A stretch of DNA of 64,000 nucleotides from Patiria miniata. Taxonomy: Eukaryota. The translations under genes and the position numbers were made by a program. The notes beneath the pieces were generated by a model. That model saw nothing but the letters and a program-made list of their open reading frames with translations, did not search any database and had not been told where the DNA came from. Where the stretch lies: contig NW_024037076.1 in assembly GCF_015706575.1 (NCBI RefSeq), forward strand, positions 22,605,286-22,669,285, read 5' to 3'. Positions 8,026-49,459 of the stretch are shown here, one piece after another. Numbering within the stretch: the stretch's first letter is position 1; every line of letters starts with the position of its first letter.

Positions 8026-8050
8026 GTAAGATTGTGGACGTGGTCATCGG

Positions 8051-8624: not shown

Positions 8625-8700
8625 ATGTGGTGCGGTAGGAATCGAACGCGAGTCATCCCGCTTACTAGAGCTGTTGTGCCCATTCTTGAAAATTACGCAT
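8625..8700 (-). other. tRNA-like (T-arm ...gcgttcgattcc...) module inside the element, probably a SINE/MITE head and not a functional tRNA
   Basis: The reverse complement reads ...gcgggatgactcgcgttcgattcctaccgcaccac. No full cloverleaf can be drawn. Confidence 0.3.
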
Positions 8701-9626: not shown

Positions 9627-10055
9627 GGAGGCGGCCTCTAAAAAGGAAGCGGGCGGGGACGCTAAACATGTTTTTTTTTTTTACTTCGCCTTATTATCCC
9701 AAAAAATCAGAATTCTTTGCACTAGTATTATTATGTCTCTTATTTTTTCCCGGTCCCCCCCATATCAATACGCCTTTACTTATCATATCCACTCTACTTT
9801 TCAGCGCCTTGCGTTGCAACAGTATAATTATTGAGAATCAGTGAACGAGGATTCAGCTAGACTTGCCAAGCGCAGCCGGTGCTCGGCATCGACAAGACCG
9901 TTATCTTGTCGCGCATTCTCAAGAATGTGCGCTCAATCTGGAAGAGTTATTTTTTGCCAAGATTGAGCAAGGATCCAGTTGCACATTCTCAAGAATGTGC
10001 ATGCCCATTCTCGAGAATGCATGATTTTCAAGAATGGGCACAACATCGCCTTTGC
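8670..10055. mobile_element. nested TIR element inside copy A, with internal C27, T22 and A24 homopolymers and no transposase ORF
   Basis: The left end gttgtgcccattcttg... and the right end ...caagaatgggcacaac are inverse copies. Sub-terminal 15-20 bp gcgc(a/c)cattcttaagaatg repeats sit at 8690-8810 and are mirrored at 9890-10050. Confidence 0.5.
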
Positions 10056-10544
10056 TTTACCACTACACCAAACGTGCTACACAACTTTAGGTGGGAATTT
10101 AATACATCTTATAATTCGGCCCTATTTTAAAGAGTACAGCGCCCTCTGTTGATAGGGATTGCCGCCGGGCAAACCTTTAGTAATCGTTAGTTTGCCGTCA
10201 TTACCTCCGGCAAAATATCCACTATCTTAACTTTTCAGTAAGGTAATTACAGCCCAAGGAAACTCAAAAGTACATCAAAAATGTAACATGAGTAACGTGG
10301 AATTGCCCTAAATATTTTTTTTATGTCGCGGCTATCGTGCACTGTGGCATCGTTTTTGACGGGCCTGTGCGCCCATGCATGCACCGGTCTACGTGGCCGT
10401 GCACAGTCACATTGTTTTGCCGGGCCTGTATGTGCGGGCACTTGCCGGTTAAAAAAAGAGAATCCATGTTATGCTTTATTTTCTCCCATCCCGACATACC
10501 CCCCCCCCCCCCCCGACATACCCCCCCCCCCCCCCCTCGGGTAC

Positions 10545-10800
10545 AATTGTCTCAGGTACGAGTTGTCTCGGGTACGAGTTGTCTCGGGTACGAGTTGTCT
10601 CGGGTACGAGTTGTCTCGGTACGAGTTGTCTCGGGTACGAGTTGCCTCGGGTACGAGTTGCCTCGGGTACGAGTTGCCTCGGGTACGAGTTGCCTCGGGT
10701 ACGAGTTGCCTCGGGTACGAGTTGCCTCGGGTACGAGTTGTCTCGGGTACGAGTTGTCTCGGGTACGAGTTGCCTCGGGTACGAGTTGCCTTGGGTACGA
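10545..10800. repeat. minisatellite, 16-bp unit GGGTACGAGTTG(T/C)CTC in about 16 copies, preceded by a duplicated cgacataccccccccccccccc
   Basis: Read directly. It generates the artefactual overlapping ORFs 10323..11382. Confidence 0.9.
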
Positions 10801-10959
10801 GTCAACATGAATTCCAGACCGGAAACGTCGAGTTTAAACCTCTGGTTCTTTTCAGTTCAGAACCATTCTCTTACTTTCTTAGTTGAAAAATTATTCGCAC
10901 ATGGTGTTTCCGCAAACCTTAGTATCTCCACCATGCAAAGCCTCAATCTTACGTGCGAT

Positions 10960-11399: not shown

Positions 11400-11860
11400 C
11401 GTTTGTGCATGGTGTGGGTCATTAAAGGGGCACTAGGTCCTGAAATCCCCGAAAATTTCATGTTTTGTATTGTTTACTTATCCTATTTCAAACGTGGGAA
11501 AGGAAACCAACCTAATGTCTTACCGTTCTCGAGAAAAGACAAAAAAAACCGGTTGTTTACATTGGACACGACGGAGTACGAATACGTTTTTCGTGTCATT
11601 CTCTAGTGTACGATATACACGTTGTGTGTCTCAGGATCAGCGGTGACCAATCACCAATGCAAAAAAAATGGTTTCTTTAACGTCCGCAAAAGGCGAACAC
11701 TTTACGAATGAAATCATGATGAAATCACAACTAGCATCCAAACGGCTCGAATTTATGGGTCGCAAAAGTGGACCCCGAAATTCGTTCTCGCACACATTAC
11801 ACAGGAATAACACAAAAACGTCCAGTTTTGAAAGGGTAGTTGTGTGGATGTTTCTATCCT
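11400..11860. repeat. interspersed repeat family X, copy 1 (second copy at 41430-41870, same orientation, about 80% identity)
   Basis: Shared blocks aaaggggcactaggtcctga(a/g)atcccc(g/a)aaaatttcatgttttg...gaccaatcaccaatgca...gcaaaagtggacccc(g/a)aaa are present in both copies. Confidence 0.6.
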
Positions 11861-17752: not shown

Positions 17753-20575
17753 TACTTGTACTTCACTTCATCCAGTTCAGTTTTATGCAATATTCGTCCA
17801 GTATTTCACTAGGAGAACTGGTGGTGTTTTAGACTGAAATTCTTGGAAACCAAAATGTGTTTGAGAAGAAAATACATTTTTGGGAAGCTTAGTGTTGAAA
17901 GATGTTTTGGAAATGCATGTATTTCACTTTTCAATTGCAAATTTTAATTTTGAAATGCGATTTTAATTGGCAAGTCTTTCACTTATAATTTTTAAGTTGT
18001 AACAGAGGGCTTTGGTGATATGCTCGTAGGTGAGGCTCTCTTCTCTTGCATGAAACAGGCATTCACCTTACTTGCGTCTGCTAATCTGAAGATGTTTAGT
18101 TACTTTTCCATGTCCAGGAGTTTGTACATGATTGATACATTGACTGAAGCTTTAACGTGCCTTGTGTGGCTTAATGTTCTCTTCATGCACACAATATCTG
18201 GCGTGTTGGACTGAAATTGAATTGTTTCAGAAAAGACTGCAAGCATGCCAATCATGGGTAATGTTATCATTAATGAAGCAATTAGGTCCTGTTGTTAAAA
18301 GTTATTTTATTATCGAGAGTGTGATAGGGTATCTTTGTGTAATAGGGTATTTATGTGCAAATCTAACCATGAATGATGTAATTTGGCAGTCAGAATTGTT
18401 TTAGATGAACTAAGCTGATTTTTTTAAAGGTAAGTTCCGCTTGATAATGAAATAGTTATGTAAGTTGTCAAAAGATGTGAAAAGGGCGAAGTTCTTATAT
18501 GTACTTAATTGTCATGTCATCATAAAGGATTACCGCATTATAAATCCCTGGAGATTTTAACAGCACTGAAATGACTTAGTAGTTCCGATAACAGTGGACA
18601 TGTTCTCCAAAAACCAAAGGTAATTGTGTGCTTTATTGTTATCTTTAGTTATCAAAACAAAGATAGTTGTATTTTATTGTTCAAATCAAATAATATCTCT
18701 GATTTAATTGTCTATTTGTTAAGGCCTTAATTGCGTGTTGAGATAACTATACATATTGCATGATACCTAATAGCATTTTGCAATCAAATAGCAATCGTGT
18801 GTAGCATTGAAATTATGCATGACATGCATGTATTTCTAGTATCAATCTAATTTTCATAGAGTTTTTAAATCAAGCAATATTGTAATATTTTCTGAATCAC
18901 CGATTTTGTTCCACATTGCTGTTTTGATTTTTGAGAACGAGAAATTGTGTTTCCTTCTGAAAGCCAAAAACGTTTTATATAGTTGAAGGGCAAACCTTTG
19001 TACTTAACACAGCACAATATGCGCTTTTCCAAAATGTACAATTGTTGTTTTTATTAAGATTTTAGCCTGAGCTGTAGTAAACCAAAGTCTCCTTTACATC
19101 ACACTTCAGGTCTCACGGCATAGTAGTTTAATCTTGTACAAAAGCAGTTATCCCATTACTTTTATTTGTATATACTTGTGTTTATGCGTATTGGTCAGTA
19201 TTAATCCGCCGCACAGTAATATATTTTACCAGCACGTTATTACCATAACTAGTTTGTCACTCTCGCCTTAACCGGTGTCCTGTGACTTTCGGTCTGTTTT
19301 ACCTCATTTTGACTTTAACCCTAACACGTGACTTTTCACTGTTCTACTTTTGTCACTGAGGCATGCGCAATAAAACTGTGTTTCACTGTTGAGTCAAAAA
19401 TTCATACTAAAAAAAAAGTATTACAAAAAATTGTGGACTTTAATACAGGTAGTTTACTTGGAAGTACATGTATGACAATATATTACATGTACCACTTTGG
19501 TAATGAAATAATTGTGTTAATAGATCGAGATGATTTGTGTGCATATCAATGAAAAAATTAACGTGCAAGTTGAGTGATTTTGTAAACTTAAGCGGTTCGA
19601 TGGAACTTGTCATATATTAAATAGTGTATGAAAGAAAGCAATTGTCTATTGGTGGAATTTTCTTCTTTTTTTACCGCGTATAAGACTGGAATGACATATT
19701 CAAGTTCTCTTTCCCTTTTGTGTTAAAAGGAAGAAGTGTCAGAGTATTATTGATATCGTCCATAACGCGTGCTCTTTCCTCAACAAACATCTACGCTTCA
19801 AACCATCTACATTATTCCTCTTTCAACCACATCCCCTTCAATTTAGATGAAAACATTACCAACCACAACTTATGACACTACTTCTACTTCCTTCATGTTT
19901 TAGTCTCAAGCACACTCACCGTGGCTAATTTGACGGGTTCCCCCTTCTTTGCTGTAAATAATTGACATGAGCGTGACTTTACAAATTCTCATTGATTTGG
20001 ATCTGTCACTTAGTCACCGCTGTAAATAGTCATCTGTCCGGCAACGGGAAGGAAAAACACGAACGAACTTCATGTAATTGACTTTTGTATGTACCCTACT
20101 GATCAAGTACGCGCACGTACACTTAAAGCGTAAACACGCTTCAGTTGATTTCTGGTAATTAATTGCACTTTCAATCTCCTCACAGCCTCTCGATGTTACC
20201 CACAATGGCTAAATAAATCTGGAAAGTAAGCAGCGATCATGAATGCAGGGGTTGGGAAAGAGGTCAGTTTAACCATGGAGCAAGGAAAATGTTTAACAAA
20301 AGTGTCTGAAATTTGAAAAAAAAATACAGCAGAGGATACGAAAATGGATGGTCCGCTCAATGGAGACATAGACCATTTGCATGGAAATTTAATTTGTATC
20401 GATGGCAACTCAGAGTGGCGCATTTACTTTGTTTATTATTAACGGGGGCATTTCCTGTGATGGGAAAAGTGGTATCATCCGCCCACTCGCTTCATCACAA
20501 AACGATGCCTGGTTAGGTTGGGAAACATACCCTCTAGTTCCTCTATATACGTGTTCAGAGTTGCTTTCCGCAGAG

Positions 20576-22582
20576 ATGGGGTTTCTCAAGGTGTCTGTGG
20601 TGCTGTTTTCTGCTTTGGTGGTTTTCGGTGATATTCCATCTCGCGCCAAAATCAAATACAAGAGAGACGGACATTTTATCATCGGTGGGCTGTTTCCCGT
20701 TTACAGAATTTCTAGGCCGACTTGTGCTTATCTTGGTTGGAGTACAGTGTACAAAACAGAGTTGATGGTTTACGCCATCGAGCAGATAAATTCTCGTTCA
20801 GATGTACTTCCGAATGTAACCCTTGGATTTGACATTAGACCATACTGTGACGATGAATCCATTGTGATCACGAATGCTTTGTCTATGGCTGGTGTAGATG
20901 GAGTTACTACACATGATGAAGAAAACAGCAAGTTTGTTGGGTTTGTAGGACCAGGCACCAGTGTCACTAGTGTAGCGACTGCTATCACAACAACCGTGCA
21001 CAAGATTCCCGTTGTTTCTTACGCTGGATCCAGTATGGAGCTCAGCGATAAAACTCGGTTTCCTTACTTTCTGCGAACCTGGCCACCAGGCTCCCACCAA
21101 GCTGCGGCTATTGTTGATGTTTTACTCAGATTCAAATGGTCGTATGTTGGACTTGTTTACTCAAGAAACACTTACGGGATTCATGGCGCTCAAGAAATCG
21201 AAAAACTGGCCGATACTCACAACATATGCTTAGCTTTTTCGGTTCCACTTCCCGAGACGGTCGAAAAACGAGATATTGACATTGTTATGGAGAAGATCCT
21301 GATATTCCAGAAAGCTAAAGTCGTCATTTTCTTCGTCCATCCAGCAAAAAGTGGTATCGAAGTTCTTCAATCCTTGATGAAGACGATTCCTGATCATCCA
21401 GGACTAATAATAGTTTCTGGTGATTCTTTCGTGAGCTACTTGAATTATTATGGTGTTGCAAACGTTACGAGAGGTAGTGTTGGTATTCGCTCTTACTACA
21501 AAGAGGTTCCCGGATTCAGGGAACACATCCAAACTGTTCAAATGGAGGGAATGCCGGTGAGCCCGTGGTTCGAATGGTTGCAAAATTATCAAGTATCGAC
21601 AAACCCAAAGTGTCAAAACATAACACAGTGTCCCCTGTACTGTTATGACGGTTATTGCAATGATCATTATGTAGTTGATGCTGTCAGTTTATATGCTTCA
21701 GCTCTAGACAAAGTCTTGAACCAGATATGTAATGGCAATGTGAACTGTCTGATTAAGGAGATGAGTGGTCCATTGCTCATATCATATCTGAAGAATACAA
21801 GCTTTCAAGGTGTTGATGGGCTCTTTACATTCGACGTCCATGGACACCCTGGTGCCAAATATGACCTGACAATGCTTCAGTACCTTAACGGCTCTCATCG
21901 AGAAGTTAACATTGGATTTTGGGATTCACGTTCTGAGAACAACAACCATCTAGACATGACTTTGGATGACCTCCCTTGGCCTGAAGGTCACACATCACCA
22001 CCAATATCTGTTTGTCGTGAGACATGTCTCCCAGGGTACATCTCAGTCCCACTTGTCACCAAATGCTGTTATGGATGCCAACGTTGTCCGATCAACACTA
22101 TCGTAGTCAATGACACAGAGTGTCGTCCGTGTGTAAACTTTTTTTGGCCGAATGTCAACTACACTCGCTGCGAGAGAATCGCACCTTTATCCACTGAATG
22201 GCAAAGTGCTTTGACTTGCTCCATACTTGCTTTTACTGGTCTCGGTGTGGTTCTTACATCTTGCACTGGTACGGGACTGATTTATTACCGTCATCATCTA
22301 TTGATCAAAGCAACGGGACGAGAACTAAGTAGTGCCAACCTCCTAGGTCTCTTACTATCCTGCTTGACTGTTATTCCTATCCTGATCATTCCAACCGAAT
22401 TCTCTTGCGCCTTATCTGACGCCATGATTGCCCTCTGCCTCACGCTGACATACGCTCCTACGCTACTCAAGGTGAATCGCATCCATCGTATCTTCAAAGG
22501 AGCTAAGAAATCAAAAAAACGACCCAAGTTGGTATCTCCACGGCAACAGCTATTCTTGGTATCGGTTTTCACAGCTGTACAA
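20576..22582 (+). CDS. class C (family 3) GPCR resembling metabotropic glutamate receptors, exon 1: signal peptide, Venus-flytrap/ANF-receptor domain, Cys-rich domain, TM1-TM3
   Basis: Signal peptide MGFLKVSVVLFSALVVFG (ATG 20576). GGLFPV and the ...SYAGSSMELSDKTRFPYFLRTWPPGSHQAAAIVDVLLRFKWSYVGLV..YG motif match the mGluR ligand-binding-domain signature. The 9-Cys module is CRETCLPGY...CCYGCQRCP...CRPC. Donor caa|gtaaga at 22583. Confidence 0.8.
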
Positions 22583-22808
22583 GTAAGACTTGATTATTTT
22601 GTCTCTTTTTAATGTCTAATCGTTTCAATTCATCGCCTTCTTCACTTCACACATACCACTTGACCCATCCCCTATATAACAGCATGTCACCGATAGCAAC
22701 ACATGCAAAATGTCGAGTCCTAGTCCTTTTCTTGTGTGTTTTCTTATTATCGAAATGCATGCAGTGTTTTGCGAGTTTTATTAACAAAAACATAGAATGT
22801 CTCTCTTA

Positions 22809-23186
22809 GGCCAAAAAAAAAAGTCTCCGGTTTCTGGTATGCGCGCGCGTCGCTGTAGCCATGCGCGTCGGCAAAATGAAAAAGGTTTTTTTTTTCAATG
22901 AAAGATGATGTCTCAAAATCGCCAAACTCACTGGTTTGACTGGAATCCTGCTGCTGCACATTTTTAACGTGTTTTTTAGATGGAGTTATGGTCGAGAATA
23001 AGCTTTATGTGGCCTCTCTGGACTCCCAATCCCATATAGGCCTATTTGTACTAAGTTTAGTCGGGCACCATTTGCAGTCATCAGCCGACATTTGAAGCAA
23101 AAAAGTCGGGTAAAAAAAAAAAAAGCCGCGTCGCCGCACCACTTTTTGGGCAAGCTCCATACCAGAAACCGGAGACTTTTTTGGGG
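22809..23186. mobile_element. MITE family M copy 1 (TIR ggccaaaaaaaagtctccggtttctggtat), inside the GPCR intron
   Basis: About 90% identical to the reverse complement of 24685-25039. Confidence 0.7.
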
Positions 23187-23265: not shown

Positions 23266-23829
23266 GTACTCATCGTCATTGTGACGGTCATTTTCTACCC
23301 ATCTGTACCCACGATGATCCAACCATCAACACAGGAGAAACTTGTGGAGATTTACTGCCTCTTTCGCTCCGGTTTCTTTGCATCGTGCATCTACAACCTC
23401 CTCTTAGTCCTCGCTTGCTGCTACTACGCCTTCAAGACCCGTAAGGTACCAAGTAACTACAATGAGTCCAAGTTCATCGCCGCCAGCGTCTACTCAACAC
23501 TTCTCTTGGGCTCAGCAGCAGCCTTGGTGTACACTACTGCCGTAGGAGTAGAGACAATAAAAGCTACCCTGAGTTTGGTTGTACTTCTCAATGCTTATCT
23601 GACACTAGGCTGTGTCTACCTGCCAAAGCTATACGCGGCACGTTTCATCCGAGATTTGAGCGTTCTTGGTGTGCGCAGCTCCAGTGGGCACGCGGAAATC
23701 GGGCCCTCATCAGTTAGTGATGTCGGGTCGGCGTTGGCTGATAATTCCTATAGCGGTGGGCCTTTGAGTATTTCTCAAAGAAGGTCCGCCGTGTATCCAG
23801 AAAAAGTAAAATCCTCGGACAACATCTAA
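23266..23829 (+). CDS. same class C GPCR, exon 2 (TM4-TM7 plus C-tail; stop TAA 23827-23829)
   Basis: Acceptor aaag|gta at 23264-23265, phase 0. The junction ...FTAVQ|VLIVIVTVIFYP completes a TM helix. The TM7 motif LPKLY is the mGluR-type PKxY. Confidence 0.75.
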   Translation, partial: VLIVIVTVIFYPSVPTMIQPSTQEKLVEIYCLFRSGFFASCIYNLLLVLACCYYAFKTRKVPSNYNESKFIAASVYSTLLLGSAAALVYTTAVGVETIKATLSLVVLLNAYLTLGCVYLPKLYAARFIRDLSVLGVRSSSGHAEIGPSSVSDVGSALADNSYSGGPLSISQRRSAVYPEKVKSSDNI

Positions 23830-24684: not shown

Positions 24685-25039
24685 GGCCAAAAAAAGTCTC
24701 CGGTTTCTGGTATGGAGCTTGCCCCAAAAGTGGTGCGGCTTTTTTTTTTTTTTACCTGATTTTTTTGCTTCAAATGTTGGCTGATGACTGCAAATGGTGC
24801 CCGACTAAACTTAGTGCAAATATATGGGAGTACAGAGAGGCCACATAAAGCTTATTCTCGACCATAACCCAATCTAAAAACACGTTAAAATTGTGCAGCA
24901 GCAGGATTCCAGTCAAACCAGTGAGTTTGGCGGTTTTGAGACATCATCTTTCATTGAAAAAAACCCTTTTTCATTTTGCCGACGCGCATGGCTACGGCGA
25001 CGCGCGCGTATACCAGAAACCGGAGAATTTTTTTTGGCC
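24685..25039. mobile_element. MITE family M copy 2 (inverse orientation, both TIRs intact, flanked by TAA on each side)
   Basis: The termini are ggccaaaaaaagtctccggtttctggtat ... ataccagaaaccggagaattttttttggcc, with flanks cactaa| and |taatct. A 3-bp TAA TSD would suggest a PIF/Harbinger-type MITE. Confidence 0.65.
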
Positions 25040-25489
25040 TAATCTATGTGGGCTCTTAATACATTTTTGCAATGGTCCTTCTATAAGTGGCCTGGATGCG
25101 ACGGGGAAATGTAGGGCGGAGACTGACGGGGGAAATAAGTGTCCATCCCATAGCATATGGATTTGCTGTTATTTCTTATTTCAAATAGATGCCTGCATCA
25201 TGTACAACATTTTGCAAACCGAAAAATACCATATTACATGTTTATGAACAAACTTGACTGTATAAGGAATAATACGAGTCTCAAGCATCCTGTGAAAATC
25301 ATGAAACCTTTTGTGCTAGTCATTTTCAAGAAAAGTGGATATTTTGTATTAATTTCCAGCGATGGTAAGCCGACCATCGTTGGAAAATTCCTTCCTCAAT
25401 GGTTTTTCCAGCATGTCCAGCATCAATGACAACACAGTGTTGCTTGCTTTATAACACGAAAGACCAGGGGCGTAGCACGGTCATTTTGA

Positions 25490-25790: not shown

Positions 25791-26496
25791 GACCATACAT
25801 TTCTGAAAATTAAAGCAAAACCGAAACTGTGGTGTATACAGTACATGCAACCTCCTTAACGTAAGAAACAAGCCCGTCACAAAAATTAGAATAGTGAAAT
25901 AAAAAGGGAGAGGCCTTTAAATGGGAATTTCCCTTTAATATGTGGTCACGTGACAGCAACTGATTTAATATAGTCAGATAGAAAAGAATTTGGCTCCAAA
26001 TCACCCTCAGTTAACATATACGCAGTACAGGTGTCAGACCTAAGTCGTCGTGGATTTTTTTTAGTGTATGGTAACCAGACGTTTGTTAATGAAAATGGAT
26101 AGCGGTGTGAACATTATAATCAGACTATTTTATCGTTGCCAGATGTTCATCGGTAAATGAGAATCCTATCCTATCGGACAAGTGGCCGGTCAACAAAACT
26201 GTTGTGTTGGATAAAAGGTGAGAAATATTGCCAAATATAGAATCCGCTCGGGTATTATAAGTGTGCATGTTTTCCAATAAGTTTTATAACGTGATTCCCA
26301 TTTGCTAAAACCGAATGTTGTTAAATTTTGCGTCACAAAAAAACTGTGTCTATTCCTTCCGGAGTTCCTCCTCCATGATGATCATCACTGTCATGACTGT
26401 CACTCTCCATAATGACCATGCTCTCTAGGCCTGCCTAGCCTAGTTAGTTTTAGACCCCGTTCCTATTTACTTAGGCATGTTAGGCAGTTAGGCAGT

Positions 26497-27474
26497 GGAT
26501 ATTTAGCCGGAGACGGCATACCTTTAGTAAACGTTAGCTTGCCGGATATGCACTGAACATGCGCAGTTACTTTTTTCGCAGTGGCTATTGTTACGGCAGC
26601 CGTAACGCATTTCCCATTTTCTATCGTTACGGTAGACTGCAACTTTTATAAAAACATGACAAGAAAATATAAAATTAGAGGGAAAAAAGTGAATTTGAAC
26701 GTTACAAAATTCGGACTTTATTTCCCTTTTAAAAAAAATCCAAAGCCTCAGGTTAAAAAAGGAAAAAAATTCGAGTGCAAAACTGAGATTCGAACCCGCA
26801 ACCTCGCGGTGCAAAATCCTACCCTCTATCGACTGAGCTGTTGCACTGCTCGCTAAAACGTGGGGAAACAAATAATTATATACCTGCGTGCGTATCAAAA
26901 AAGTATCGTGGAGGGCGCTAAACAACGACTGCCGTAACGATAGCCACTTCGTACTTTTTTTTGGTACTTTTCCGGTGACTGATTTTAGTCTGGCTGCGCT
27001 TCGTCATGTCCGTGCCAACATTATCATTGTAACTTCGTATTCACAAGATGGGAATCAGACCATTTTACAATTTCGGACTTTATTTCCCTTTAAGGCTTTA
27101 TTAAAAAAAATCCTCCTGAGCCACAAATCTTAAAAAGAAAATGTAATAGGCCTACCCTGCAATAAAATGTTTCAGACATGTAAAATTAATGAAAGAAGAA
27201 TGTTCTTATTTTGGGGGATGGGGGAAAAAAACCTTAGGAATGTCGCCAGCGGGGATCGAGATCGAACCCGGGTCTTCCCGCTCATGAGATCCGTTGCTTA
27301 TCCACTAGACCAAGGGTGCTTCACAACCTTTGGTGGTTGTTTAATATATCTTGTAATTCAACTCTATCTTAGAGAGTACAGCTATACAGGGCCCTCTGTT
27401 GATATGGATTGCCGCCGGCAAACCTTTAGTAAACGTTAGCTTGCCGGCATTACCTCCGGCAATATATCCACTAT
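26497..27474. mobile_element. composite TIR element copy B, same family as 8290-10226, with a different nested insertion
   Basis: The termini match copy A. The internal tRNA-like module at 27235-27310 on the minus strand (…gacccgggttcgatctcgatcccc…) resembles a tRNA-Glu/Asp T-arm. Confidence 0.55.
26579..26950. mobile_element. nested TIR insertion (gtggctattgttacggcagccgtaacg ... cgactgccgtaacgatagccac) carrying a tRNA-like sequence at 26770-26850 on the minus strand
   Basis: It is absent from the homologous position in copy A. The reverse complement contains agctcagtcgatagag...gcgggttcgaatc, the D-loop and T-loop hallmarks, but the anticodon stem does not pair. Confidence 0.45.
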
Positions 27475-27483
27475 CTATTTTAT

Positions 27484-36684: not shown

Positions 36685-37615
36685 GTAAGTTTTATTTACA
36701 TTCTTCAGTGTGTTTAACTGTCAGTTCTAATATAAGAGATAGTTAAAACTGTTGGCAGATAAACTTCCTCTTTTGAGAATTTTCATAAGCAACGATTTTA
36801 TATTTATGAGAATGGCAGCATGAAATCCTTGTGGTTTGCTTGAGTTGAGTTTGGGGAATGAGTGTTGATTGTTTTCCGCTGTCCATAACTGAAATGTGTG
36901 CTTTGTCATCTGTCTATTTGAATGATGACGTTATACAAATATTGAATGCTTCGAGTGGTGTAGTAAAACTAGGCTCCCGAGGTGATCCATGGACCATTCT
37001 ATTTTCCCGAGGCGAAGCCGAGGGAAAATAGAATGGTCCATGGATCACCGAGGGAGGCTAGTTTTACTTTACCACGAGATAAAGCATTCAATATTTGTTT
37101 TATAACACTTCACCCACAGATTCTGCTTGATTTTAATATTTTACATGATTTAAATCTGAACACAGTTGAAATAAACTTCAATTTCAATACAAAATTGGTG
37201 GAAAATGTATTTCTCTCTTAAAAACTAACCCTTCACAAAATGTTTGAACCCAAGTCTGCGGCGCGCTCTCTTTGGAATAATACGCGCTACGCACAACGCG
37301 CAACGCGCACACCAGCATGCATTTGCACACAAATACCGCGCCGTGGAAATAGTACTTTGGTTGCTAATGGTGTAGTATTTTGGTTGCTATGCGCATAGTA
37401 CTTTTGGCCGTGCACAGAAAGATAGCAAAATTAGAAAGTAGCATGTGACTCGCTCTCGGCCAATCAAGACACAGAATCTGTGGGTGAGGTGTTATAAAAA
37501 TTGTCATCATTTCTCATCCAGCTACTATTTTTAAGTAGAAAAAAGGAGATGAATTTCCAAAGCAACATAACAGTGTGTAGATAATTTATAAGGTTTTGTT
37601 GTGTTATCTTCTCAG

Positions 37616-37689: not shown

Positions 37690-38100
37690 GTATAGGACCA
37701 TGTCTTAATTACTTGGCTATGACCAGCAGCAGCACACAGGTCTATAGGATGTAGAGTCAGCAGCTACCATAATTACTTGGCTATGACCAGCAGCAGCACA
37801 CAGGTCTATAGGATGTAGATTCAGCAGCTACCATAATTACTTGGCTATGACCAGCAGCAGCACACAGGTCTATAGGATGTAGATTCAGCAGCTACCATAA
37901 TTACTTGGCTATGTCCAGCAGCAGCACACAGGTCTATAGGATGTAGATTCAGCAGCTACCATAATTACTTGGCTATGACCAGCAGCAGCACACAGGTCTA
38001 TAGGATGTAGATCCAGCAGCTACCATAATTACTTGCCTATGGCCAGCTGCAGCAGCACACAGGTCTTTAGGGTGTAGCTTTAGCAGCTACCATAATAACT
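37690..38100. repeat. tandem repeat, about 60-bp unit in about 6 copies (ggctatgaccagcagcagcacacaggtctataggatgtagattcagcagctaccataattactt), in CCDC186 intron 15
   Basis: Seen directly. Confidence 0.9.
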
Positions 38101-39185
38101 TGACTATGCCCCCCCCCCCTTCTAAATTTTCACCCAATTATGTTTTGTCCTCTCTTCTTCTGATTCATACTAAACCACTGCCATGACCCTAAATTTATCC
38201 ACTCACAATTTGTAACCAAATTAAATGTAGTAAATAAAATACATACTTCTCTGTAACTGTGTAAGATGTTTTCACAATTATGTCAATACTCTTTGGTTTT
38301 ATACTTGTTTCTTATTTTGTTTGATCCGTTCTGAAAACCTCATGCCTGTATGCTTTTCTCCAGCAACAGTAATCTGACACAACTGCCAGATTCTTCAAAG
38401 AGTTTTCCTGCCCTGAGAATAACCCAGTTCACAATTGCATCTTGTTTTTCTGTCACTTTTCCCCCAATAAATTGCTGCTTTGTTTTCCTTTGCTATCATG
38501 CTTCCATTGTTTTCAGTCCCCATCCGGCTTACGAAGCACTATGGTAAGAATTCCCACATCACTGAATGGACCTCTTGCTTTTCACGGCCGTCTTGTCATC
38601 AGCTTTGCTCATGTTTGTAGTCTGCAGAGCATGCAAGCTAACAGCATGAAAAGCACAGTTTTGGTGTTGCTTTGAAAAAAAAATGTCCTTCACTGGCTTT
38701 TTCTTCATCCCGAAAAGTATTTGAATTTTGCGATTTTACTTTCATTTGGGCAAGTTCTTATTCTTTAAACTGCATGCTAAAAGTGTTTTCTACATTTGTA
38801 AAAAAAAAATTATTTGAACTGCCATAAACTGCCAAATCTTTTTATAGTTATATGCATGCCATATAGCTGATCAAATTTAACCATGAAAAGTTACTCCTGA
38901 TGTCGCTAAATTATTTCAAAGGGATTGCAAAATAGACCTAGTGAATTACATGTCTCAACTGTAGCTATTGCTGTGATTTTTTTTTGTGTGTTGCTTGCTG
39001 TCCTTGATTTTTTTAAGAAGGAAATCGTTATTTTGAATTGCGTTTTGTTTTGTTGATACCAAGTACATTCTGTAGATCATTTTGTATTAGTTGCTTTGAA
39101 TGATAAACACCTCATTTGCACTGAGTGAAATTAGAATTATTATTTTCTATTGGTTTAAAATTTGTCTTCATTTTACGTAAACTTT

Positions 39186-40342: not shown

Positions 40343-41429
40343 TAAATAATACAATCTCATCATAGAAGGCATAGCAGCAGCATCATCAACCCTCCATATA
40401 TTAGACAGCTTCATCATTTATTGATGGAGGTCAACAGAAAGTGCTCATATTTTAAGAGAGCCTAAATTTCTTAGATAGGAAAAGCATTTTTTTTCAAGGC
40501 AAGATGATGCCTGGCACCCTAATAGAAGGAGCAACGTGGTAGCCTTACTGAACACAATATTACTTGGTTTTTCTAATGTATCAATATGTTTATAGAAGGA
40601 CCATTGAATGTTTACGTAGGTTTTAAACTCTGTACGATTCACACACAATATGTATTCACTGTTTCATCCAAGCTGCATTCTAACTCTTTCTGTTGGTTTT
40701 TCTCCCTATGGGCTCCTGTGCAAACAAGGACTCACTGATGCGCGTACTGGTTCGCATGCATATAAAGCAAAGTACACATGCCTAATTTATTCTGAATGTG
40801 CGCAATCCTATGGCATCGTCGCTTGAGCGTCAAGGAATCGTTGGCAATGCGTTTGAATGTCTCTCCAAGTGGTCTCCCCCAACTCTCCCTTTCTTACCGT
40901 TGAGGGGGTACTTGTGCACGGAGCCCATAGTTTGTTTATTTTGATCTTTTAAGCATGTCATGCTTGCTTTATGCTCAAAATGATAAACAATATGCACAAA
41001 TTAATTCCAATTAAGATTTTATCCTCTATCTATTTAGTTTTGTTCTTTTAATGATGTATATTGATAAAGCATTCTAACAGAGTATAGCCCTAAATATGGC
41101 AAGGCATTCCAAAAATTCCAAAATATACATGTATGTTGTAATTTTTGTATATATTGTATAATTTATGAAAGAAAACACATGTACATAGCAAGCGAAAAAT
41201 AAATGGTTAGAATTTACAGGGGGTAAGTGTTATAACTGCATGCAACAAAATTGCTGCCATGTATATTATTCATGGTTCTAGGTTGTTGTTTTTTCATATG
41301 TATTCAACCTGAATCAGAATCATAGTTTCAACCAGGACGTGGTATGCTTTAACCTCCTGTTATTGTTCTTTATTGTTGCATGAAAAGACAAGTACATAAT
41401 GACAGAAAGGGAATGGTATTGTTTGATAT

Positions 41430-41870
41430 TAAAGGGGCACTAGGTCCTGAGATCCCCAAAAATTTCATGTTTTGGATTGTTTACTTATCCTATTTTAAAC
41501 ATCTGGTTGAAAGGAAACCAACCTAATGTCTTACCTAAAAAACCTGGTTGTTTACATTCACATAACGAATATTTTTTTCCTGTCATTCAATGTACACTTT
41601 GTGCATGTGTCTGTTATAACGTACATATACAGCACCATGCTTGCGAACAGCAATGACCAATCACCAATGCACAAAATGTGGTTTCTTACACGTCCGCACA
41701 AGGCGAACTCTTTTTATGGATGAAATCACAACTAGCATCAAAACAGCTCAACTTTTTTAGGCCGCAAAAGTGGACCCCAAAAGTCATTCTCGCACGCATA
41801 ATACAGAAATAACACAAAAACGCCAAGTTTTTATAGGATAGTTTTGTGGATGTTTATATGGTCTGCAATG
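41430..41870. repeat. interspersed repeat family X, copy 2
   Basis: Homologous to 11400-11860. Confidence 0.6.
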
Positions 41871-44328: not shown

Positions 44329-45321
44329 ATGATGGAAGGCATGAGTAACGCAAATATTTCTCAGATGGAATCCATGGATCAGAAAACAATTCATATTCTT
44401 AAACTAATCGTCATGACGCTCCTAACTTCCACAACAATTGCAGCAAATTTGGTGTGTTTTTCTGTCCTGGCGTTTGACTGGAAGAACCGTAACGTTTCTC
44501 AAGTCTTTATGATGTCGCTAACTGTATCAGACCTTGCTGTTGGTATCGTCATGTGTGTTCCTGTCACCGTGTCTTTGGCTGTTAATCGCTGGCCGTTTGG
44601 AGATGTATTTTGCCTTGTGAATGCCATCGTGACGTACTTCTTATTAATAATAGCATGTGGCTGTGTTCTGTTTGTCAACCTGGAGAGATTTGTGACAATA
44701 ATGTGGCCCTTGCGAAGTGTGACATATATAACTGTAAAACGAGCTGAAATTGTTGTCATTTGCCTGTGGACCTCTTCGTTTGTATTAGCTCTTTTATATG
44801 GATTACTGCCTTGGAGAGCAGCTTTATATGCCGAAAGAGCTCATCAGTGTGTGGTAGACCCTACTGACGAAGATGTTATCGATATCTTTGGTACTTTGTC
44901 AACTGGGATGTATTTTACAGTTCTCCTCGTCTGTTTCACACAGTATTTCTACTTGTATCGAATTGTACGTCACCATCGTCGAGTTATCATGCCCGCCCCC
45001 GCGCTACATGCTCCGCCACGCCCACGAGGATTGTCCTCGTCAGATTTCAAAACAGCTACAACATTTTTCCTCATGGTTGCAACGTTGGCAGTAACATGGA
45101 CTCCGGAAACCATTGTGATTCTTTATGAATCAGTAACTCGCCGAGATGCTTCACCTTCCACCATTTTCTCAGCTCAGTTCCTTGGCTACTGTAACGGCAT
45201 TTTAAATGTCGTGATTTATTTTGTTAGAAATGAACCGTTTCGACAATCCGCTAAAAGGTTTTGGCGAAAATTGAAAAGACCGATTGGTTGCCAGTCTTGG
45301 CTTCAGTCTGAGAGAGCTTAA
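44329..45321 (+). CDS. intronless orphan class A (rhodopsin-like) GPCR, 330 aa
   Basis: ORF 44329..45321. It has an N-terminal N-glycosylation site (NAN/IS) and 7 TM segments. The motifs are TM1 N (NLVCFSV), TM2 LTVSDLAVG, TM3 Cys plus ERF (DRY variant: VNLERFVTI), TM4 W (CLWTSS), TM6 TWTP (CWxP variant), TM7 NVVIY (NPxxY variant) and helix-8 FVRN. There is no Lys in TM7, so it is not an opsin. Confidence 0.8.
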   Translation: MMEGMSNANISQMESMDQKTIHILKLIVMTLLTSTTIAANLVCFSVLAFDWKNRNVSQVFMMSLTVSDLAVGIVMCVPVTVSLAVNRWPFGDVFCLVNAIVTYFLLIIACGCVLFVNLERFVTIMWPLRSVTYITVKRAEIVVICLWTSSFVLALLYGLLPWRAALYAERAHQCVVDPTDEDVIDIFGTLSTGMYFTVLLVCFTQYFYLYRIVRHHRRVIMPAPALHAPPRPRGLSSSDFKTATTFFLMVATLAVTWTPETIVILYESVTRRDASPSTIFSAQFLGYCNGILNVVIYFVRNEPFRQSAKRFWRKLKRPIGCQSWLQSERA

Positions 45322-45420
45322 ACTCAATATGACATTTCCAATTCTAAAGATTACTATTGCCTCTGACATTTCTTCGAGAGCCTAATGTAGGATAACCGCA
45401 ACAACTGCTTATCCGAACAT

Positions 45421-46352
45421 AGCCCGACTGCGTCTGGCCGTACAGTACTATCGCAAGCTCTGTAGTACGGCCAGACGCTGAATGCTTCCCAAAAGACTGA
45501 ATTTTTTTGGCCGCTGATGTAGCGATTTTGCTACATCTTTTGATCGAGATTATCTTTTCATCCAGGACAAAAATTTCCACATTTAAGGTTCTTAGTCGTA
45601 GAGCAACTCATACCTTTCCGAAAAAACGTTCTTTGGTCTCAATATTTTCATCCATCTGGCCAAATAACGACTTTCAGTGATCATCTTCCACAAATATCGT
45701 CCCGAAAATGCTCCCCCATGCGATTTCAAAATGGCGGCCGCGCTGTAACTCATGAATATGCATGAAAAGTCTGTGACGTATGACCTCGTGTTTGTGGACG
45801 TGCGTGCGGCGGCGCCGTACGTACATGTACGTACATGTACATTACTTGTAGACAACAGCCCAGTACGTGCATGCACACCGCCGCGCGGACGTAAGTGTGC
45901 ATGCACGTACTGGGCTGTTGTCTACAAGTAATGTACATGTACGTACATGTACGTACGGCGCCGCCGCACGCACGTCCAAAAACACGAGGTCATACGTCAC
46001 AGACTTTTCATGCATATTCATGAGTTACAGCGCGGCCGCCATTTTGAAATCGCATGGGGGAGCATTTTCGGGACGATATTTGTGGAAGATGATCACTGAA
46101 AGTCGTTATTTGGCCAGATGGATGAAAATATTGAGACCAAAGAACGTTTTTTCGAAAAGGTACGAGTTGCTCTACGACTAAGAACCTTAACTGTGGAAAT
46201 TTTTGTCCTGGATGAAAAGATAATCTCGATCAAAAGATGTAGCAAAATCGCTACATCAGCGGCCAAAAAAATTCAGTCTTTTGGGAAGCATTCAGCGTCT
46301 GGCCGTACTACAGAGCTTGCGATAGTACTGTACGGCCAGACGCAGTCGGGCT
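45421..46352. mobile_element. foldback-type element: a 932-bp near-perfect palindrome (arms about 455 bp, asymmetric central loop of about 16 bp) flanked by the 10-bp direct repeat ATCCGAACAT as a target-site duplication
   Basis: Left flank ...atccgaacat|agcccgactgcg..., right flank ...cgcagtcgggct|aatccgaacat. The arms differ at only a few positions. The mirror-image ORFs 45592..45906(-) and 45867..46181(+) are artefacts. It lies 100 bp 3' of the class A GPCR stop codon. Confidence 0.8.
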
Positions 46353-47777
46353 AATCCGAACATTGTGAGAAAAATCAAGACTGATCTTAACATTTCACGA
46401 TGATGGCTCAAGGTCACACGAATCTCCGAAGCAACGTTTTAATCTGTCAAAAGCTGTCCAATAATATGGGTTCTGTTGTCAGTTTGCTTTTAATTGTGAT
46501 CGCAGACTTTGCAAGCAAATAAATAAAATGAGACAATGTGCATCTGAGTTGAAAATGAATAGTCAAAGAACTTATGCATTTACACCCTTTATAATAATTT
46601 TGTTGCTGGTAGTTGTACCTTTTTTCTTGAACGCTATATAGGCCTATAGGGAACTGGAGGGCAACATTAAAAATGCAAAATCATCTGCCTTATTACGATG
46701 AAAGTTTTTGGCAAAGCTTTTTTGTTAATTGGGTGAATGAATCTACAACAATGCTGGATAACCTTGTAAGGGACGGTTCAACAGCGGGGAGAAAGTGAGA
46801 CATTATAGCTTCCCAGAGGCACCCCCTCCCCCAACCAAAATAAAATGTCAAAAAATGTTTTGAGTGGATGATATTTTCTGAGGCTTGCGGAACGTTCAAA
46901 AACGTCAAGACTCCAAAAAAAGTCTGAAAGTTGGGTATTACAAAGATTGTTAATCCCCCCTCCGAAAAAAATAACAGCAATAACTTTAACCTTACACAAC
47001 TATCCTCACCCACTCCCACCCCTCGATCATCAAATATATATTTTCTTGGCGACTTAAAATTGTCACGTTTTTAGGCCGTATGTAGGCGTTTGATTGAAGA
47101 CAGTTCGTTCAGTGTGAAGGCATCTTCTTCCTGCAGAAGAAATTTATCCATACATTTTGCCTCTAGCATAGCACCTGGAAAATTATAAATAAACATGGAA
47201 ATATATAGCTATGACTCAGTTTCTAGACAGTTTGTTTACTGTAAACTGCGTGACAAGTTCAAAACTACATATTATGTAAGTTTACTCGTGCAGTGGCGGA
47301 ACTTGCGAGGCACAGCGGCACTCTCCCCCCCCCCCCCCCCCCCCCACTCTGCTCGAGCAAAGTGCCTCTTGTACTGTACTATGTGCCCCCTCCCCTCCCC
47401 GCTGTTTGAAGTTAGGAGAAGGCAGTGCTCGTCATTTATGTGCCCGACGCCTGCAAGTAATTTGGACCCTGATTGCACTACTAGGTTTACTCCGCGCGTC
47501 TTTAGTCTGGGCCACCGGGGATTTATGATTCTTTTTTACTCACTTTTTTTTGGGGGGGGGGGGGTAATATTGGGGCAACCTGATTGTAATTACTGGTTGT
47601 GAAGTGTTGGCGCTTTCTTCAACCAATCAAAGCCCCCATTGTCACCTTACACATAAGTAATTGTTTGAAGCTTTGCAAGGTGGAGTGATAAGTAGAGAAG
47701 TAGGTTTGCGTGTACAGCATGGACAAATCTCATTTGTGGGGAAGTGTTGGCTGTTAAGAGAGCTGGCATGGGTCTAA

Positions 47778-48090: not shown

Positions 48091-49459
48091 TTGCATGGGT
48101 CTCGACGTTTCGAACACTATACTCCATTCGTCTTCAGGAGACTGAAGACGAACCCTCTCACCTCCGGCTCTCTTCAGAGCCAACACTTCTCACAAAAGAG
48201 ATTTGTCAATGGTGTACACGCAAACCTACTTCCCTACTCACCTTGCACCTGTTTACGAATTTCAAATTAGATGCCAAACCGAGGCTCTCAGTGCTAGAGA
48301 CAAAGGGGAGCACTGGGGGCCTCAGATTCGGTTTGAAATTCGTGTATCCACCTACGTCAACCCATCACCGTCGCACGATTTCCTTTTGTCTCAACAAACG
48401 GTATCGTTTCATTGTACTGTGAGCTGAAGAAGCTCAAATGTCTAGGTCATTGCCGTTTTTCAGCTTCGGTTTTCTTTCAAGTCTCCTTTTATCCCGGACA
48501 GCTGTTGTTAGAAAATAGGATACAAACGTGAGTTGAATATCCGGAGCAGTAATTAACTTTACACCTCATCCATTTTCCCAAAACACACGCTGCAAGGATG
48601 ACGTCTTTAAGATAAATCAAATGATTATTGTACACTGAGAGAATTGTGCGATTTTGTATTGTTCAAATGCACCTGTTGTGGTGTCCCTACATATCCGATT
48701 CTGCACGCGTTGCCAAGCTTGTCGGGTGTATCCAATTGCCCTTTGAAAAGGAAATGCGCACAGGTGTTAATACACTGAATTCTTTAGTAACTTTTTCAAA
48801 TTCTAACATTTTTTTATCTCTTTACTTACGTCTTTTGTCTGTTTACCAATGATCACCCGATTTCATATGTAAGTTTCTTTGCCCTAACAAACTACTTTTT
48901 AATGAACTGCACATATCTGCTGCTGCATACTGTACGATGTATTCAGTTCGCCTACTCGCAAGATTGAAAGTTGATGGACAGCTTATTGTTTTATTCGGTA
49001 AGAATTTAGTACAATTCACACTGCACTTCAAAAATATTCTTCCATAAAATCAGTTGCTAATGTTAGTACCGTCATTTCATGACTCTAACTGATCGTATTA
49101 TTTTCGTACAATCTTTGACAGGGAATGTATTTGAGTTTTGTTAAATATTAAAAAACATTTGGAGACGTGTGCTCATTCTATGGAACCAATTGTTTATTTA
49201 TTGTGTAAAGCCTTTTTAAATTAAAGCACGAACTCGACAAATAAAACAGCTTATTACGCAAAAGTTAACACTCCGAGAAATTGAATCACAGTGCATACAG
49301 AAATAAGACAGTGGCTATATCAAACGAAATTGGAATGAATTTTTAATATTGGTGTATGAAGTGTCTTTAGTTGTAATAATTGGTGATTACAGGATGATAT
49401 TTTGAGTGATGCTGTGTACGAAGACTGCCCTAGGCAGAGCTCAAACCGGAAAAACATAT

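What the first reader, a model, noticed from the sequence alone, without database searches (positions are those of the whole stretch)
45400..46372. 932-bp near-perfect palindrome with a 10-bp target-site duplication, a foldback-type transposon inserted 100 bp 3' of an intronless GPCR
The arms are almost identical, which implies a recent origin or gene-conversion maintenance. The flanking direct repeat ATCCGAACAT is unambiguous evidence of transposition. The element carries no ORF, since the two 104-aa ORFs are mirror artefacts. The position right after the GPCR stop codon makes it a likely component of that gene's 3'UTR. As a long hairpin it could act as a dsRNA or siRNA source or as a transcription terminator.
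Basis: seen in the sequence. Interest (0 to 1): 0.55.

Follow-up and report, generated by a model that had tools for sequence, protein, structure and literature searches.

The report
Hairpin-shaped transposon insertion beside starfish GPCR
A 934-bp, almost perfectly palindromic, non-coding DNA transposon sits 100 bp after a receptor gene in the bat star (Patiria miniata) genome; it is a real, apparently young insertion of a known general kind, not a new kind of system.

Summary
Two 459-nt arms (45420-45878 and 45895-46353) differ by four substitutions and no indels, around a 16-nt asymmetric centre. A perfect direct repeat, ATCCGAACAT, abuts both ends. The duplication can be read as 9 bp (symmetric 934-bp element) or 10 bp.

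The host is the sea star Patiria miniata. The upstream ORF is a full-length rhodopsin-type GPCR ending 100 bp before the element.

The element has no coding capacity, no vector or prokaryotic match, and no Rfam hit above threshold. It is best read as a non-autonomous cut-and-paste DNA transposon with very long terminal inverted repeats. A 9-10 bp duplication with long repeats points to the Mutator/MULE (Phantom/Foldback) superfamily, but no transposase or second copy could be found.

It is "foldback" only in shape: the arms lack the tandem-subrepeat structure of Drosophila FB, Tm1 or Tetris. Its CpG content is the highest in the window (o/e 1.33 against a median of 0.57), which fits a young insertion.

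The element probably lies in the GPCR 3'UTR, since the first AATAAA is 155 bp beyond it. Transcription, dsRNA/siRNA and terminator roles are untested. It is ordinary, but cleanly resolved.

The parts
45411..45420 (.). Left copy of the target-site duplication ATCCGAACAT. Under the 9-bp reading it is 45411-45419, and T45420 is the first base of the element.
   Evidence: 10/10 identity with 46354-46363. The chance rate for an identical 10-mer at a fixed offset is 1.7e-5.
45420..45878 (.). Left arm (terminal inverted repeat), 459 nt, starting (T)AGCCCGACTGCGTCTGGCCGTACAG.
   Evidence: (I1): 455/459 complementary to the right arm, no indels.
45430..45478 (.). Sub-terminal hairpin in the left arm: GCGTCTGGCCGTAC, 21 nt, GTACGGCCAGACGC. 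It is a candidate transposase-binding or recognition module.
   Evidence: (I4): 14-nt stems, 100% complementary; the 14-mer occurs only four times in the 64-kb window, all inside the element. The function is inferred.
45817..45840 (.). The only tandem repeat in the left arm: 2.4 copies of GTACGTACAT. It is mirrored at 45933-45956.
   Evidence: TRF.
45879..45894 (.). Asymmetric 16-nt centre (loop), CGCCGCGCGGACGTAA.
45895..46353 (.). Right arm (terminal inverted repeat), 459 nt.
46295..46343 (.). Sub-terminal hairpin in the right arm, the mirror of 45430-45478.
   Evidence: (I5).
46354..46363 (.). Right copy of the target-site duplication ATCCGAACAT.
44329..45321 (+). Neighbouring gene: a single-exon ORF of 330 aa encoding a rhodopsin-family (class A) GPCR. 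Its stop codon is 100 bp upstream of the element.
   Evidence: ORF. (Pfam 7tm_1, 106.4 bits, E = 2.3e-30, full-length profile match). (best relative is 40% identical; no identical NCBI protein model).
46518..46527 (+). First canonical poly(A) signals (AATAAATAAA) downstream of the GPCR stop codon, 155 bp beyond the element.
   Evidence: there is no AATAAA or ATTAAA between 45322 and 46517. That this signal is actually used is inferred.

Best explanation
This is one copy of a non-autonomous class II (cut-and-paste) DNA transposon that consists almost entirely of two 459-bp terminal inverted repeats. It is inserted in the Patiria miniata genome 100 bp downstream of an intronless class A GPCR ORF.

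Proposed mechanism:
- A transposase encoded elsewhere in the genome recognised the identical ends. The terminal (T)AGCCCGAC sequence and the paired 14-bp motif GTACGGCCAGACGC just inside each end are the candidate recognition sites.
- The transposase made a 9- or 10-bp staggered cut in the target ATCCGAACA(T) and joined the element in. Gap repair then produced the flanking direct repeat.
- The length of the duplication together with the very long terminal repeats points to a Mutator-like (MULE, Phantom/Foldback group) transposase. I put that superfamily assignment at about 50%.
- The palindromic body most likely arose in one of two ways. Either an internal deletion removed everything between the long terminal repeats of an autonomous parent, or strand-switching during repair copied one end in inverted orientation. 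In both cases a 16-nt centre was left.
- The insertion is young. The duplication is intact, the arms are 99.1% identical, and the element has not undergone the CpG decay of the host DNA.

What is shown: the palindrome, the duplication, the lack of coding capacity, the lack of tandem subrepeats, the CpG excess and the position relative to the ORF and the poly(A) signal.

What is inferred: mobilisation in trans, the superfamily, the mode of origin, the age, and residence in the GPCR 3'UTR.
For: - Palindrome with 455/459 matching positions and a 16-nt centre.
- A perfect 10/10 direct repeat exactly abutting both ends. The background rate is 1.7e-5, and this is the only such 10-mer at that offset in the window.
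- The internal sequence is unrelated to the flanks or to anything else in the window.
- No coding capacity. The 104-aa ORFs start with GTG and are mirror images. The longest ATG-initiated ORF is 78 aa. There is no Pfam hit and no word-sharing homologue. The only exhaustive-HMMER hits are four weak matches to internally repetitive proteins.
- No vector, plasmid or prokaryotic origin.
- The 14-bp motif is paired in inverted orientation at each end and is unique to the element.
- CpG o/e is 1.33 against a tile median of 0.57. None of 1,224 other tiles reach it.
- Literature: MULE duplications are 8-11 bp and MULE terminal repeats are commonly hundreds of bp (PMC6446971). Foldback-like families with 8-10 bp duplications are assigned to Mutator/Phantom (PMC3169594; PMC4079207).
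Against: - No second copy was found. The element is single-copy in the 64-kb window.
- The metagenome scan gave only chance 20-21-nt matches in high-GC bacterial contigs, and the viral scan gave none.
- These negatives say little. The collections evidently do not hold P. miniata genomic DNA: even the neighbouring GPCR ORF has no near-identical entry, and NCBI sea star proteins cannot be traced to contigs.
- No transposase and no empty allele are available, so transposition rests on structure alone.
- The superfamily rests only on duplication length and repeat length. Galileo shows that copies made only of terminal repeats can be misassigned: it was first called Foldback-like and later placed in the P superfamily (PMC3573991).
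- The element boundary is ambiguous by 1 nt.
Confidence: 0.78

Rival explanations
1. It is the same kind of object, a non-autonomous long-inverted-repeat DNA transposon, but it is mobilised by a transposase of another superfamily such as hAT, P/Galileo-like or Merlin instead of a MULE.
For: - No transposase is linked to the element.
- Foldback-like structure has arisen independently in several superfamilies (PMC4079207).
- Galileo copies made only of terminal repeats were first misfiled as Foldback-like (PMC3573991).
- Under the 9-bp reading the terminus TAGCC matches four of the five positions of the hAT end consensus YARNG, which I am recalling from memory.
- Merlin makes 8-9 bp duplications, also from memory.
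Against: - An 8-bp duplication (hAT, P) would require two further flanking bases to match by chance and an asymmetric end (sequence reading).
- A 9-10 bp duplication combined with repeats hundreds of bp long is the typical MULE combination (PMC6446971).
Confidence: 0.2
2. The palindrome is an assembly or sequencing artefact, for example a fold-back chimeric read or a mis-joined inverted duplicate, and does not exist in the animal's genome.
For: - Long perfect palindromes are known products of chimeric reads.
- No raw reads or second assembly could be examined.
- Only one copy is seen.
Against: - An artefactual fold-back would mirror the flanking genomic sequence. Here 934 bp of sequence unrelated to the flanks is bounded precisely by a 9-10 bp direct repeat, with unique and different sequence on either side.
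- The arms differ at four positions and the centre is asymmetric.
- There are no Ns anywhere in the window.
Confidence: 0.03
3. The insertion did not come from transposition. A snap-back or hairpin DNA fragment was captured at a staggered double-strand break, or a local inverted duplication formed by replication template switching.
For: - The element is single-copy in the data available.
- A short 16-nt turnaround centre is what strand-switch synthesis typically leaves (inference).
Against: - End-joining capture does not normally create a clean 9-10 bp duplication.
- The arms are not copies of adjacent host sequence.
- The element has its own distinct composition: GC 46% against 39% and CpG o/e 1.33 against 0.64.
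- Structured, repeated motifs sit exactly at both ends.
Confidence: 0.04
4. In addition to being a transposon, the insertion now works as a regulatory hairpin. Read-through from the GPCR gene would produce a 459-bp dsRNA stem that is diced into siRNAs, or that destabilises or terminates the GPCR transcript. This would be analogous to maize Mu killer.
For: - There is no poly(A) signal between the GPCR stop codon and the element or inside it. The first AATAAA lies 155 bp beyond it.
- The RNA would fold into one uninterrupted stem of -904.6 kcal/mol.
- Precedent: Mu killer is a MuDR-derived inverted duplication for which a hairpin RNA made by read-through from a flanking gene is proposed as the siRNA substrate (PMC3440606).
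- hpRNA loci produce endo-siRNAs in Drosophila (PMC10317233).
Against: - No expression or small-RNA data could be examined.
- The GPCR has no matching NCBI protein model in the collection, so even its transcription is unknown.
- The Rfam hits are all below gathering score, symmetric on both strands and generic for any perfect hairpin.
- The insertion looks recent, so selection for a function is unlikely.
Confidence: 0.07

Closest known systems
Non-autonomous Mutator-like elements (MULEs), including the Phantom/Foldback group, for example Tm1-ML of Meloidogyne and Tetris of Drosophila virilis
   Same: - Non-coding.
- Long terminal inverted repeats, hundreds of bp.
- Target-site duplication of 9-10 bp. 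MULEs make 8-11 bp (PMC6446971), Tm1 mostly 9 bp (PMC3169594) and Tetris 8-10 bp (PMC4079207).
- Presumed to be mobilised in trans.
   Different: - No MULE transposase or autonomous partner is linked to it.
- The arms are of equal length and made of unique sequence. Tm1 repeats are built from 14-bp tandem units and Tetris repeats from 220-bp units.
- The middle domain is reduced to 16 nt.
- No family of copies has been demonstrated.
Drosophila Foldback (FB) and sea-urchin TU elements, the classical foldback transposons
   Same: - Overall snap-back architecture, with almost the whole element made of inverted repeat.
- Echinoderm precedent: TU in Strongylocentrotus purpuratus, cited in PMC4079207.
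   Different: - The modular terminal repeats with tandem-subrepeat outer domains are absent here. TRF finds only 2.4 copies of a 10-mer.
I could not verify this because the original papers are not held.
Galileo copies made only of terminal repeats (P superfamily, Drosophila buzzatii and D. mojavensis)
   Same: - Copies consist only of long terminal repeats.
- They were initially classified by shape alone.
- They show that such palindromic derivatives arise from autonomous elements with long terminal repeats (PMC3573991).
   Different: - Galileo makes 7-8 bp duplications, from memory.
- Its terminal repeats are internally repetitive.
- There is no sequence similarity to this element.
Maize Mu killer (Muk)
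   Same: - An inverted-duplication derivative of a Mutator element lying next to a host gene.
- It is proposed to be transcribed by read-through into a long hairpin RNA that feeds siRNA production (PMC3440606).
- It is the closest 'works like' precedent for the dsRNA idea.
   Different: - Muk contains transposase-gene sequence and silences its parent element.
- Here no parent is known, no transcription is shown, and the host is an animal.
MITEs (miniature inverted-repeat transposable elements)
   Same: - Non-coding.
- Terminal inverted repeats plus a target-site duplication.
- Located close to a gene.
   Different: - At 934 bp it is above the usual size range.
- The inverted repeat spans the whole element instead of 10-30 bp.
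- High copy number has not been shown.

Membership tests
Class II TIR (cut-and-paste) transposon, non-autonomous | Terminal inverted repeats at both ends | tested here: met
   Arms of 459 nt, 455/459 complementary.
Class II TIR (cut-and-paste) transposon, non-autonomous | Target-site duplication directly abutting the ends | tested here: met
   ATCCGAACAT matches 10/10 at 45411-45420 and 46354-46363. The background rate is 1.7e-5.
Class II TIR (cut-and-paste) transposon, non-autonomous | No transposase or other coding capacity | tested here: met
   No Pfam hit. No homologues. The longest ATG-initiated ORF is 78 aa.
Class II TIR (cut-and-paste) transposon, non-autonomous | Multiple dispersed copies sharing the termini but with different flanks and duplications | not testable with these tools
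   The element is single-copy in the window. Metagenome, viral and prokaryote scans gave only chance matches or none. No tool here holds the host genome.
Class II TIR (cut-and-paste) transposon, non-autonomous | An empty (pre-insertion) site in another allele, paralogue or sister species | not testable with these tools
   No other P. miniata or Patiria DNA could be retrieved. The ENA contig L006 carries only a 40%-identical GPCR and no related flank.
Mutator/MULE superfamily (including Phantom/Foldback) | Target-site duplication of 8-11 bp, typically 9 | tested here: met
   The duplication is 9 or 10 bp. The criterion is from PMC6446971 and PMC3169594.
Mutator/MULE superfamily (including Phantom/Foldback) | Long terminal inverted repeats, commonly hundreds of bp | tested here: met
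   459 bp. The criterion is from PMC6446971.
Mutator/MULE superfamily (including Phantom/Foldback) | An autonomous partner with the same termini that encodes a MULE DDE transposase | not testable with these tools
   The window holds no other sequence related to the arms, and the host genome is not searchable here.
Foldback elements in the strict sense (Drosophila FB, Tm1, Tetris, sea-urchin TU) | Terminal repeats built from arrays of short tandem subrepeats, in a modular outer/inner-domain structure | tested here: not met
   TRF at a minimum score of 30 finds only 2.4 copies of GTACGTACAT near the centre of each arm. The criterion is from PMC3169594 and PMC4079207.
Foldback elements in the strict sense (Drosophila FB, Tm1, Tetris, sea-urchin TU) | Terminal repeats of variable and often unequal length within one element, owing to differing repeat numbers | tested here: not met
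   The arms are exactly equal (459/459) with no indels.
MITE | Small size (usually below about 800 bp) and high copy number | tested here: inconclusive
   At 934 bp it is slightly above the usual range. Copy number cannot be tested here.
hAT superfamily | 8-bp target-site duplication | tested here: not met
   The direct repeat is 10 nt long. An 8-bp reading needs two extra chance matches and an asymmetric end. The criterion is from my own knowledge.
Rfam miRNA precursor families (mir-5014, mir-3149, MIR535 and others) | A score at or above the family's gathering threshold | tested here: not met
   The best hit is 80.5 bits against a gathering score of 101. All hits are below threshold, are mirrored on both strands and sit at the apex of the palindrome.

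The most novel reading that the evidence does not exclude
The insertion is a natural, Mu killer-like hairpin locus in an echinoderm. The GPCR transcript would read through into the 934-bp palindrome and yield a 459-bp perfect dsRNA. That dsRNA would be processed into endo-siRNAs which silence the element's own family, or tune the GPCR. This would be a young example of host or transposon RNAi control in a deuterostome invertebrate.
Probability: 0.06. Interest if true: 0.6.

Novelty: new member of a known kind. Interest (0 to 1): 0.2.

Why it matters
As it stands, this is a well-resolved example of a young, palindromic, non-autonomous DNA transposon in a sea star genome, a group whose mobile elements are poorly described.

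Its practical value is modest:
- It marks a probably recent, and possibly still active, DNA-transposon lineage in Patiria miniata, a developmental model species.
- It is a candidate presence/absence polymorphism next to a GPCR gene.
- A 934-bp near-perfect palindrome is a potential site of genomic instability and of long dsRNA if transcribed.

Only evidence of read-through transcription with small-RNA production, or of an unusual transposase partner, would raise it above ordinary.

Tried and rejected
1. Exact-protein look-ups for the GPCR and for the mirror ORF, meant to find the same locus or other copies in public assemblies. Neither is on record.
2. Homology search with the 104-aa ORF, meant to catch translated copies of the element. 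Nothing was found. The exhaustive HMMER search gave only four weak hits to internally repetitive proteins, which I rejected as compositional.
3. Scan of metagenome contigs with a 20-mer from the terminus. The five hits are all 20-21-nt chance matches in bacterial contigs of 58-69% GC. The viral scan gave 0 hits and the prokaryotic genome scan gave 0.
4. Attempts to pull more P. miniata DNA through annotated paralogues. NCBI eukaryotic proteins are not traceable to contigs here. The single ENA contig retrieved (L006) has no related sequence.
5. Plasmid and vector contamination. There is no match.
6. Known RNA families. Only sub-threshold, strand-symmetric miRNA-hairpin hits were found, and I rejected them as generic. 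There are no tRNAs.
7. The idea that each arm is itself a complete small MITE, which would make the element a head-to-head dimer. I rejected this because the inner end of the arm has no similarity to its outer end.
8. A Tc1/mariner reading, with a TA duplication and element GCCCGAC...GTCGGGC. I rejected it because it leaves the 9-nt flanking repeat unexplained.
9. The original sea-urchin TU paper could not be read, so TU features are quoted from memory or second-hand.
Full report
**Observation**

Reading the sequence and running repeat detection confirm a single long inverted repeat. The arms are 45420-45878 and 45895-46353, each 459 nt, separated by 16 nt.

A base-by-base comparison finds four substitutions and no indels: 45582/46191, 45610/46163, 45618/46155 and 45794/45979. 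That is 99.1% identity. The centre, CGCCGCGCGGACGTAA, is asymmetric.

As single-stranded DNA the 934 nt fold into one uninterrupted hairpin. The energy is -612.8 kcal/mol against -120.5 +/- 7.2 for dinucleotide shuffles, z = -68.6. As RNA the energy is -904.6 kcal/mol.

The decamer ATCCGAACAT lies at 45411-45420 and again at 46354-46363, directly against both ends. In this window identical 10-mers at a fixed offset occur at a rate of 1.7e-5. At the actual offset of 943 the only identical 10-mer among 63,047 positions is this pair.

The one correction concerns the boundary. T45420 pairs with A46353. So the element is either a symmetric 934-bp unit, TAGCCC...GGGCTA, with a 9-bp duplication, or a 933-bp unit with a 10-bp duplication and one unpaired A. 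The sequence cannot decide between these.

**Host and surroundings**

The large ORF at 20402-22609 is 100% identical over 77% of its length to the NCBI protein 'metabotropic glutamate receptor 1-like [Patiria miniata]', which lies on a 28.6-Mb scaffold. The next best hits are other sea stars. The window is therefore bat star genomic DNA.

The ORF at 44329-45321 (330 aa, plus strand) matches Pfam 7tm_1 over the whole profile (positions 2-260 of 260, 106.4 bits, E = 2.3e-30). It is an intact, single-exon class A GPCR ORF, and its stop codon is 100 bp before the element.

This ORF has no identical or near-identical protein in a collection that does hold P. miniata RefSeq proteins; the best hit is 40% identical. 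It appears to be unannotated, and its expression is unknown.

On the plus strand there is no AATAAA or ATTAAA between the stop codon and the element, or inside the element. The first, AATAAATAAA, is at 46518, 155 bp beyond the element. If the gene is transcribed and uses that signal, the element lies inside a 3'UTR. Before the insertion that UTR would have measured about 254 nt from the stop codon to the signal. This step is inference.

**What the element is not**

- **Not coding.** The two 104-aa ORFs listed under the bacterial code start with GTG, are mirror images (97/104 identical), and have no Pfam match.
  - The longest ATG-initiated ORF is 78 aa.
  - The word-indexed search found nothing.
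  - An exhaustive HMMER scan of 1.84 billion representatives returned four weak hits (best E = 1.5e-5, 4-9 stretches each). All are internally repetitive proteins, that is, compositional matches.
- **Not vector, plasmid or prokaryotic DNA**.
- **Not a known RNA family.** The Rfam hits are miRNA-precursor models, all below gathering score (best 80.5 against 101), mirrored on both strands and centred on the apex. Any perfect hairpin behaves this way.
- **Not a copy of neighbouring sequence.** BLAST of an arm against the window returns only the element itself. The 25-nt terminus occurs only at its two ends.
- **Not plausibly an assembly fold-back.** Such artefacts mirror the flanking sequence. 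Here foreign sequence is bounded precisely by a short direct repeat with unique flanks, the arms differ at four sites, and the window has no Ns.

**Anatomy**

Each end carries a nested hairpin 10 nt in from the terminus: GCGTCTGGCCGTAC, then 21 nt, then GTACGGCCAGACGC (I4 and I5). The 14-mer occurs four times in the window, all inside the element. Paired sub-terminal motifs of this kind are the usual form of transposase-binding sites, but that role is inferred here.

The only tandem repeat in an arm is 2.4 copies of GTACGTACAT near the centre.

The element is 46% GC against 39% for the window. More striking, its CpG observed/expected ratio is 1.33. The median for 934-bp tiles is 0.57, and none of 1,224 non-overlapping tiles reach the element's value. 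The host DNA around it has lost CpG and the element has not. This fits a recent arrival or a sequence that was never methylated in the germline.

An intact duplication and 99.1% arm identity point the same way.

**Interpretation**

The structure is that of a non-autonomous cut-and-paste DNA transposon reduced to its two long terminal inverted repeats.

The literature held here gives two relevant criteria. MULEs make 8-11 bp duplications and have terminal repeats commonly hundreds of bp long (PMC6446971). Foldback-like families with 8-10 bp duplications (Tm1, Tetris) are assigned to the Mutator/Phantom group (PMC3169594; PMC4079207). On those two criteria the element fits a MULE-mobilised element, and I give that about even odds.

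The caution comes from the same literature. Foldback architecture has evolved independently in several superfamilies. Galileo copies made only of terminal repeats were first filed as Foldback-like and were later moved to the P superfamily once a transposase was found (PMC3573991).

In the strict sense this is not a Foldback element. FB, Tm1 and Tetris terminal repeats are arrays of tandem subrepeats, often of unequal length. These arms are unique sequence of exactly equal length.

The palindromic body could have arisen by internal deletion of a parent with long terminal repeats, or by strand-switch copying of one end. The data do not discriminate between these.

**Limits**

I could not show that a family exists. 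The metagenome scan with the terminus gave only chance 20-21-nt matches in high-GC bacterial contigs, and the viral scan gave none.

These negatives carry little weight. The searchable collections do not contain P. miniata genomic DNA: the neighbouring GPCR ORF is also absent, and NCBI sea star proteins cannot be traced to contigs. The only related non-NCBI contig obtained (L006) shares nothing with this locus.

**Function**

The nearest precedent is maize Mu killer. It is a Mutator-derived inverted duplication for which read-through from a flanking gene is proposed to yield a hairpin RNA that is the substrate for siRNAs (PMC3440606). Animal hpRNA loci exist in Drosophila (PMC10317233).

The geometry here would permit the same thing: a gene upstream, no intervening poly(A) signal and a perfect 459-bp stem. 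However, there is no evidence of transcription, and a young insertion is more likely neutral or mildly deleterious. I put this reading at about 6%.

**Verdict**

This is a real, cleanly bounded and apparently young insertion of a long-inverted-repeat, non-coding DNA transposon. It is probably MULE-type and foldback-like in shape only. It lies in the likely 3'UTR of an unannotated GPCR ORF in Patiria miniata.

It is a new member of a known kind and of low to moderate interest. The decisive step, a search of the complete host genome for further copies and an autonomous partner, is simple but not possible with the tools available here.

Noticed in passing
window 45420-46353: The element has the highest CpG observed/expected ratio of any 934-bp tile in the window: 1.33 against a median of 0.57, with 0 of 1,224 other tiles reaching it. 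The next richest regions, around 7650-9000 and around 26100, also carry repeats that are shared with each other.
   Followed up: partly
window 45728-45790 (mirrored at about 45983-46045): The inner third of each arm carries promoter-like motifs: AAAATGGCGGCCGC (YY1-like, overlapping a NotI site), ATGAATATGCAT and TGACGT. They might reflect a promoter carried in the terminal repeat, as in MuDR. This is speculative.
   Followed up: no
window 44329-45321: The intact 330-aa class A GPCR ORF has no identical or near-identical protein in a collection that does contain P. miniata RefSeq proteins. The best hit is 40% identical, on an ENA contig. The ORF appears to be unannotated.
   Followed up: partly
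window 22806-23185 and 24687-25042: Two copies of a different MITE-like element of about 380 bp, 89% identical, lie in opposite orientation on either side of the last coding exon (23281-23829) of the mGluR-like gene. The element has its own short inverted ends, AAAAAAAGTCTCCGGTTTCTGGTATG, within GGCC-tipped termini. The flanks look like TTA/TAA, as for PIF/Harbinger elements.
   Followed up: partly
window 36935-37098: A second, smaller palindrome of 164 bp (84% self-complementary) with ends ACAAATATTGAATGC...GCATTCAATATTTGT. It is possibly another hairpin-type MITE. No clear target-site duplication was seen.
   Followed up: no
window 37706-38108; 10535-10802; 8696-8788: Three tandem arrays: a 64-bp unit x 6.2 copies (95% matches), a 16-bp unit CCTCGGGTACGAGTTG x 16.9 copies, and a 20-bp unit CGCATTCTTAAGAATGAGCG x 4.7 copies in a stretch that is also self-complementary.
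   Followed up: no
window 47325-47346 and 47551-47564: A run of more than 20 C and a run of 13 G form a perfect inverted pair about 200 bp apart. They lie in a repeat-rich stretch downstream of the element. A 76-bp inverted repeat lies nearby at 47691-47766 / 48164-48238.
   Followed up: no
window 11421-11857 vs 41428-41859; 8281-8676 vs 26488-27296; 10049-10227 vs 27291-27476: Several dispersed repeat pairs at 74-93% identity indicate other, older interspersed repeat families in the window.
   Followed up: no
L006 (ENA ERZ26222911, contig ctg893669, 14.8 kb, 37% GC): A contig from an ENA assembly held in the metagenome-oriented collection carries a 384-aa 7tm_1 GPCR that is 40% identical to the window's GPCR. 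It is evidently eukaryotic, probably invertebrate, DNA.
   Followed up: no
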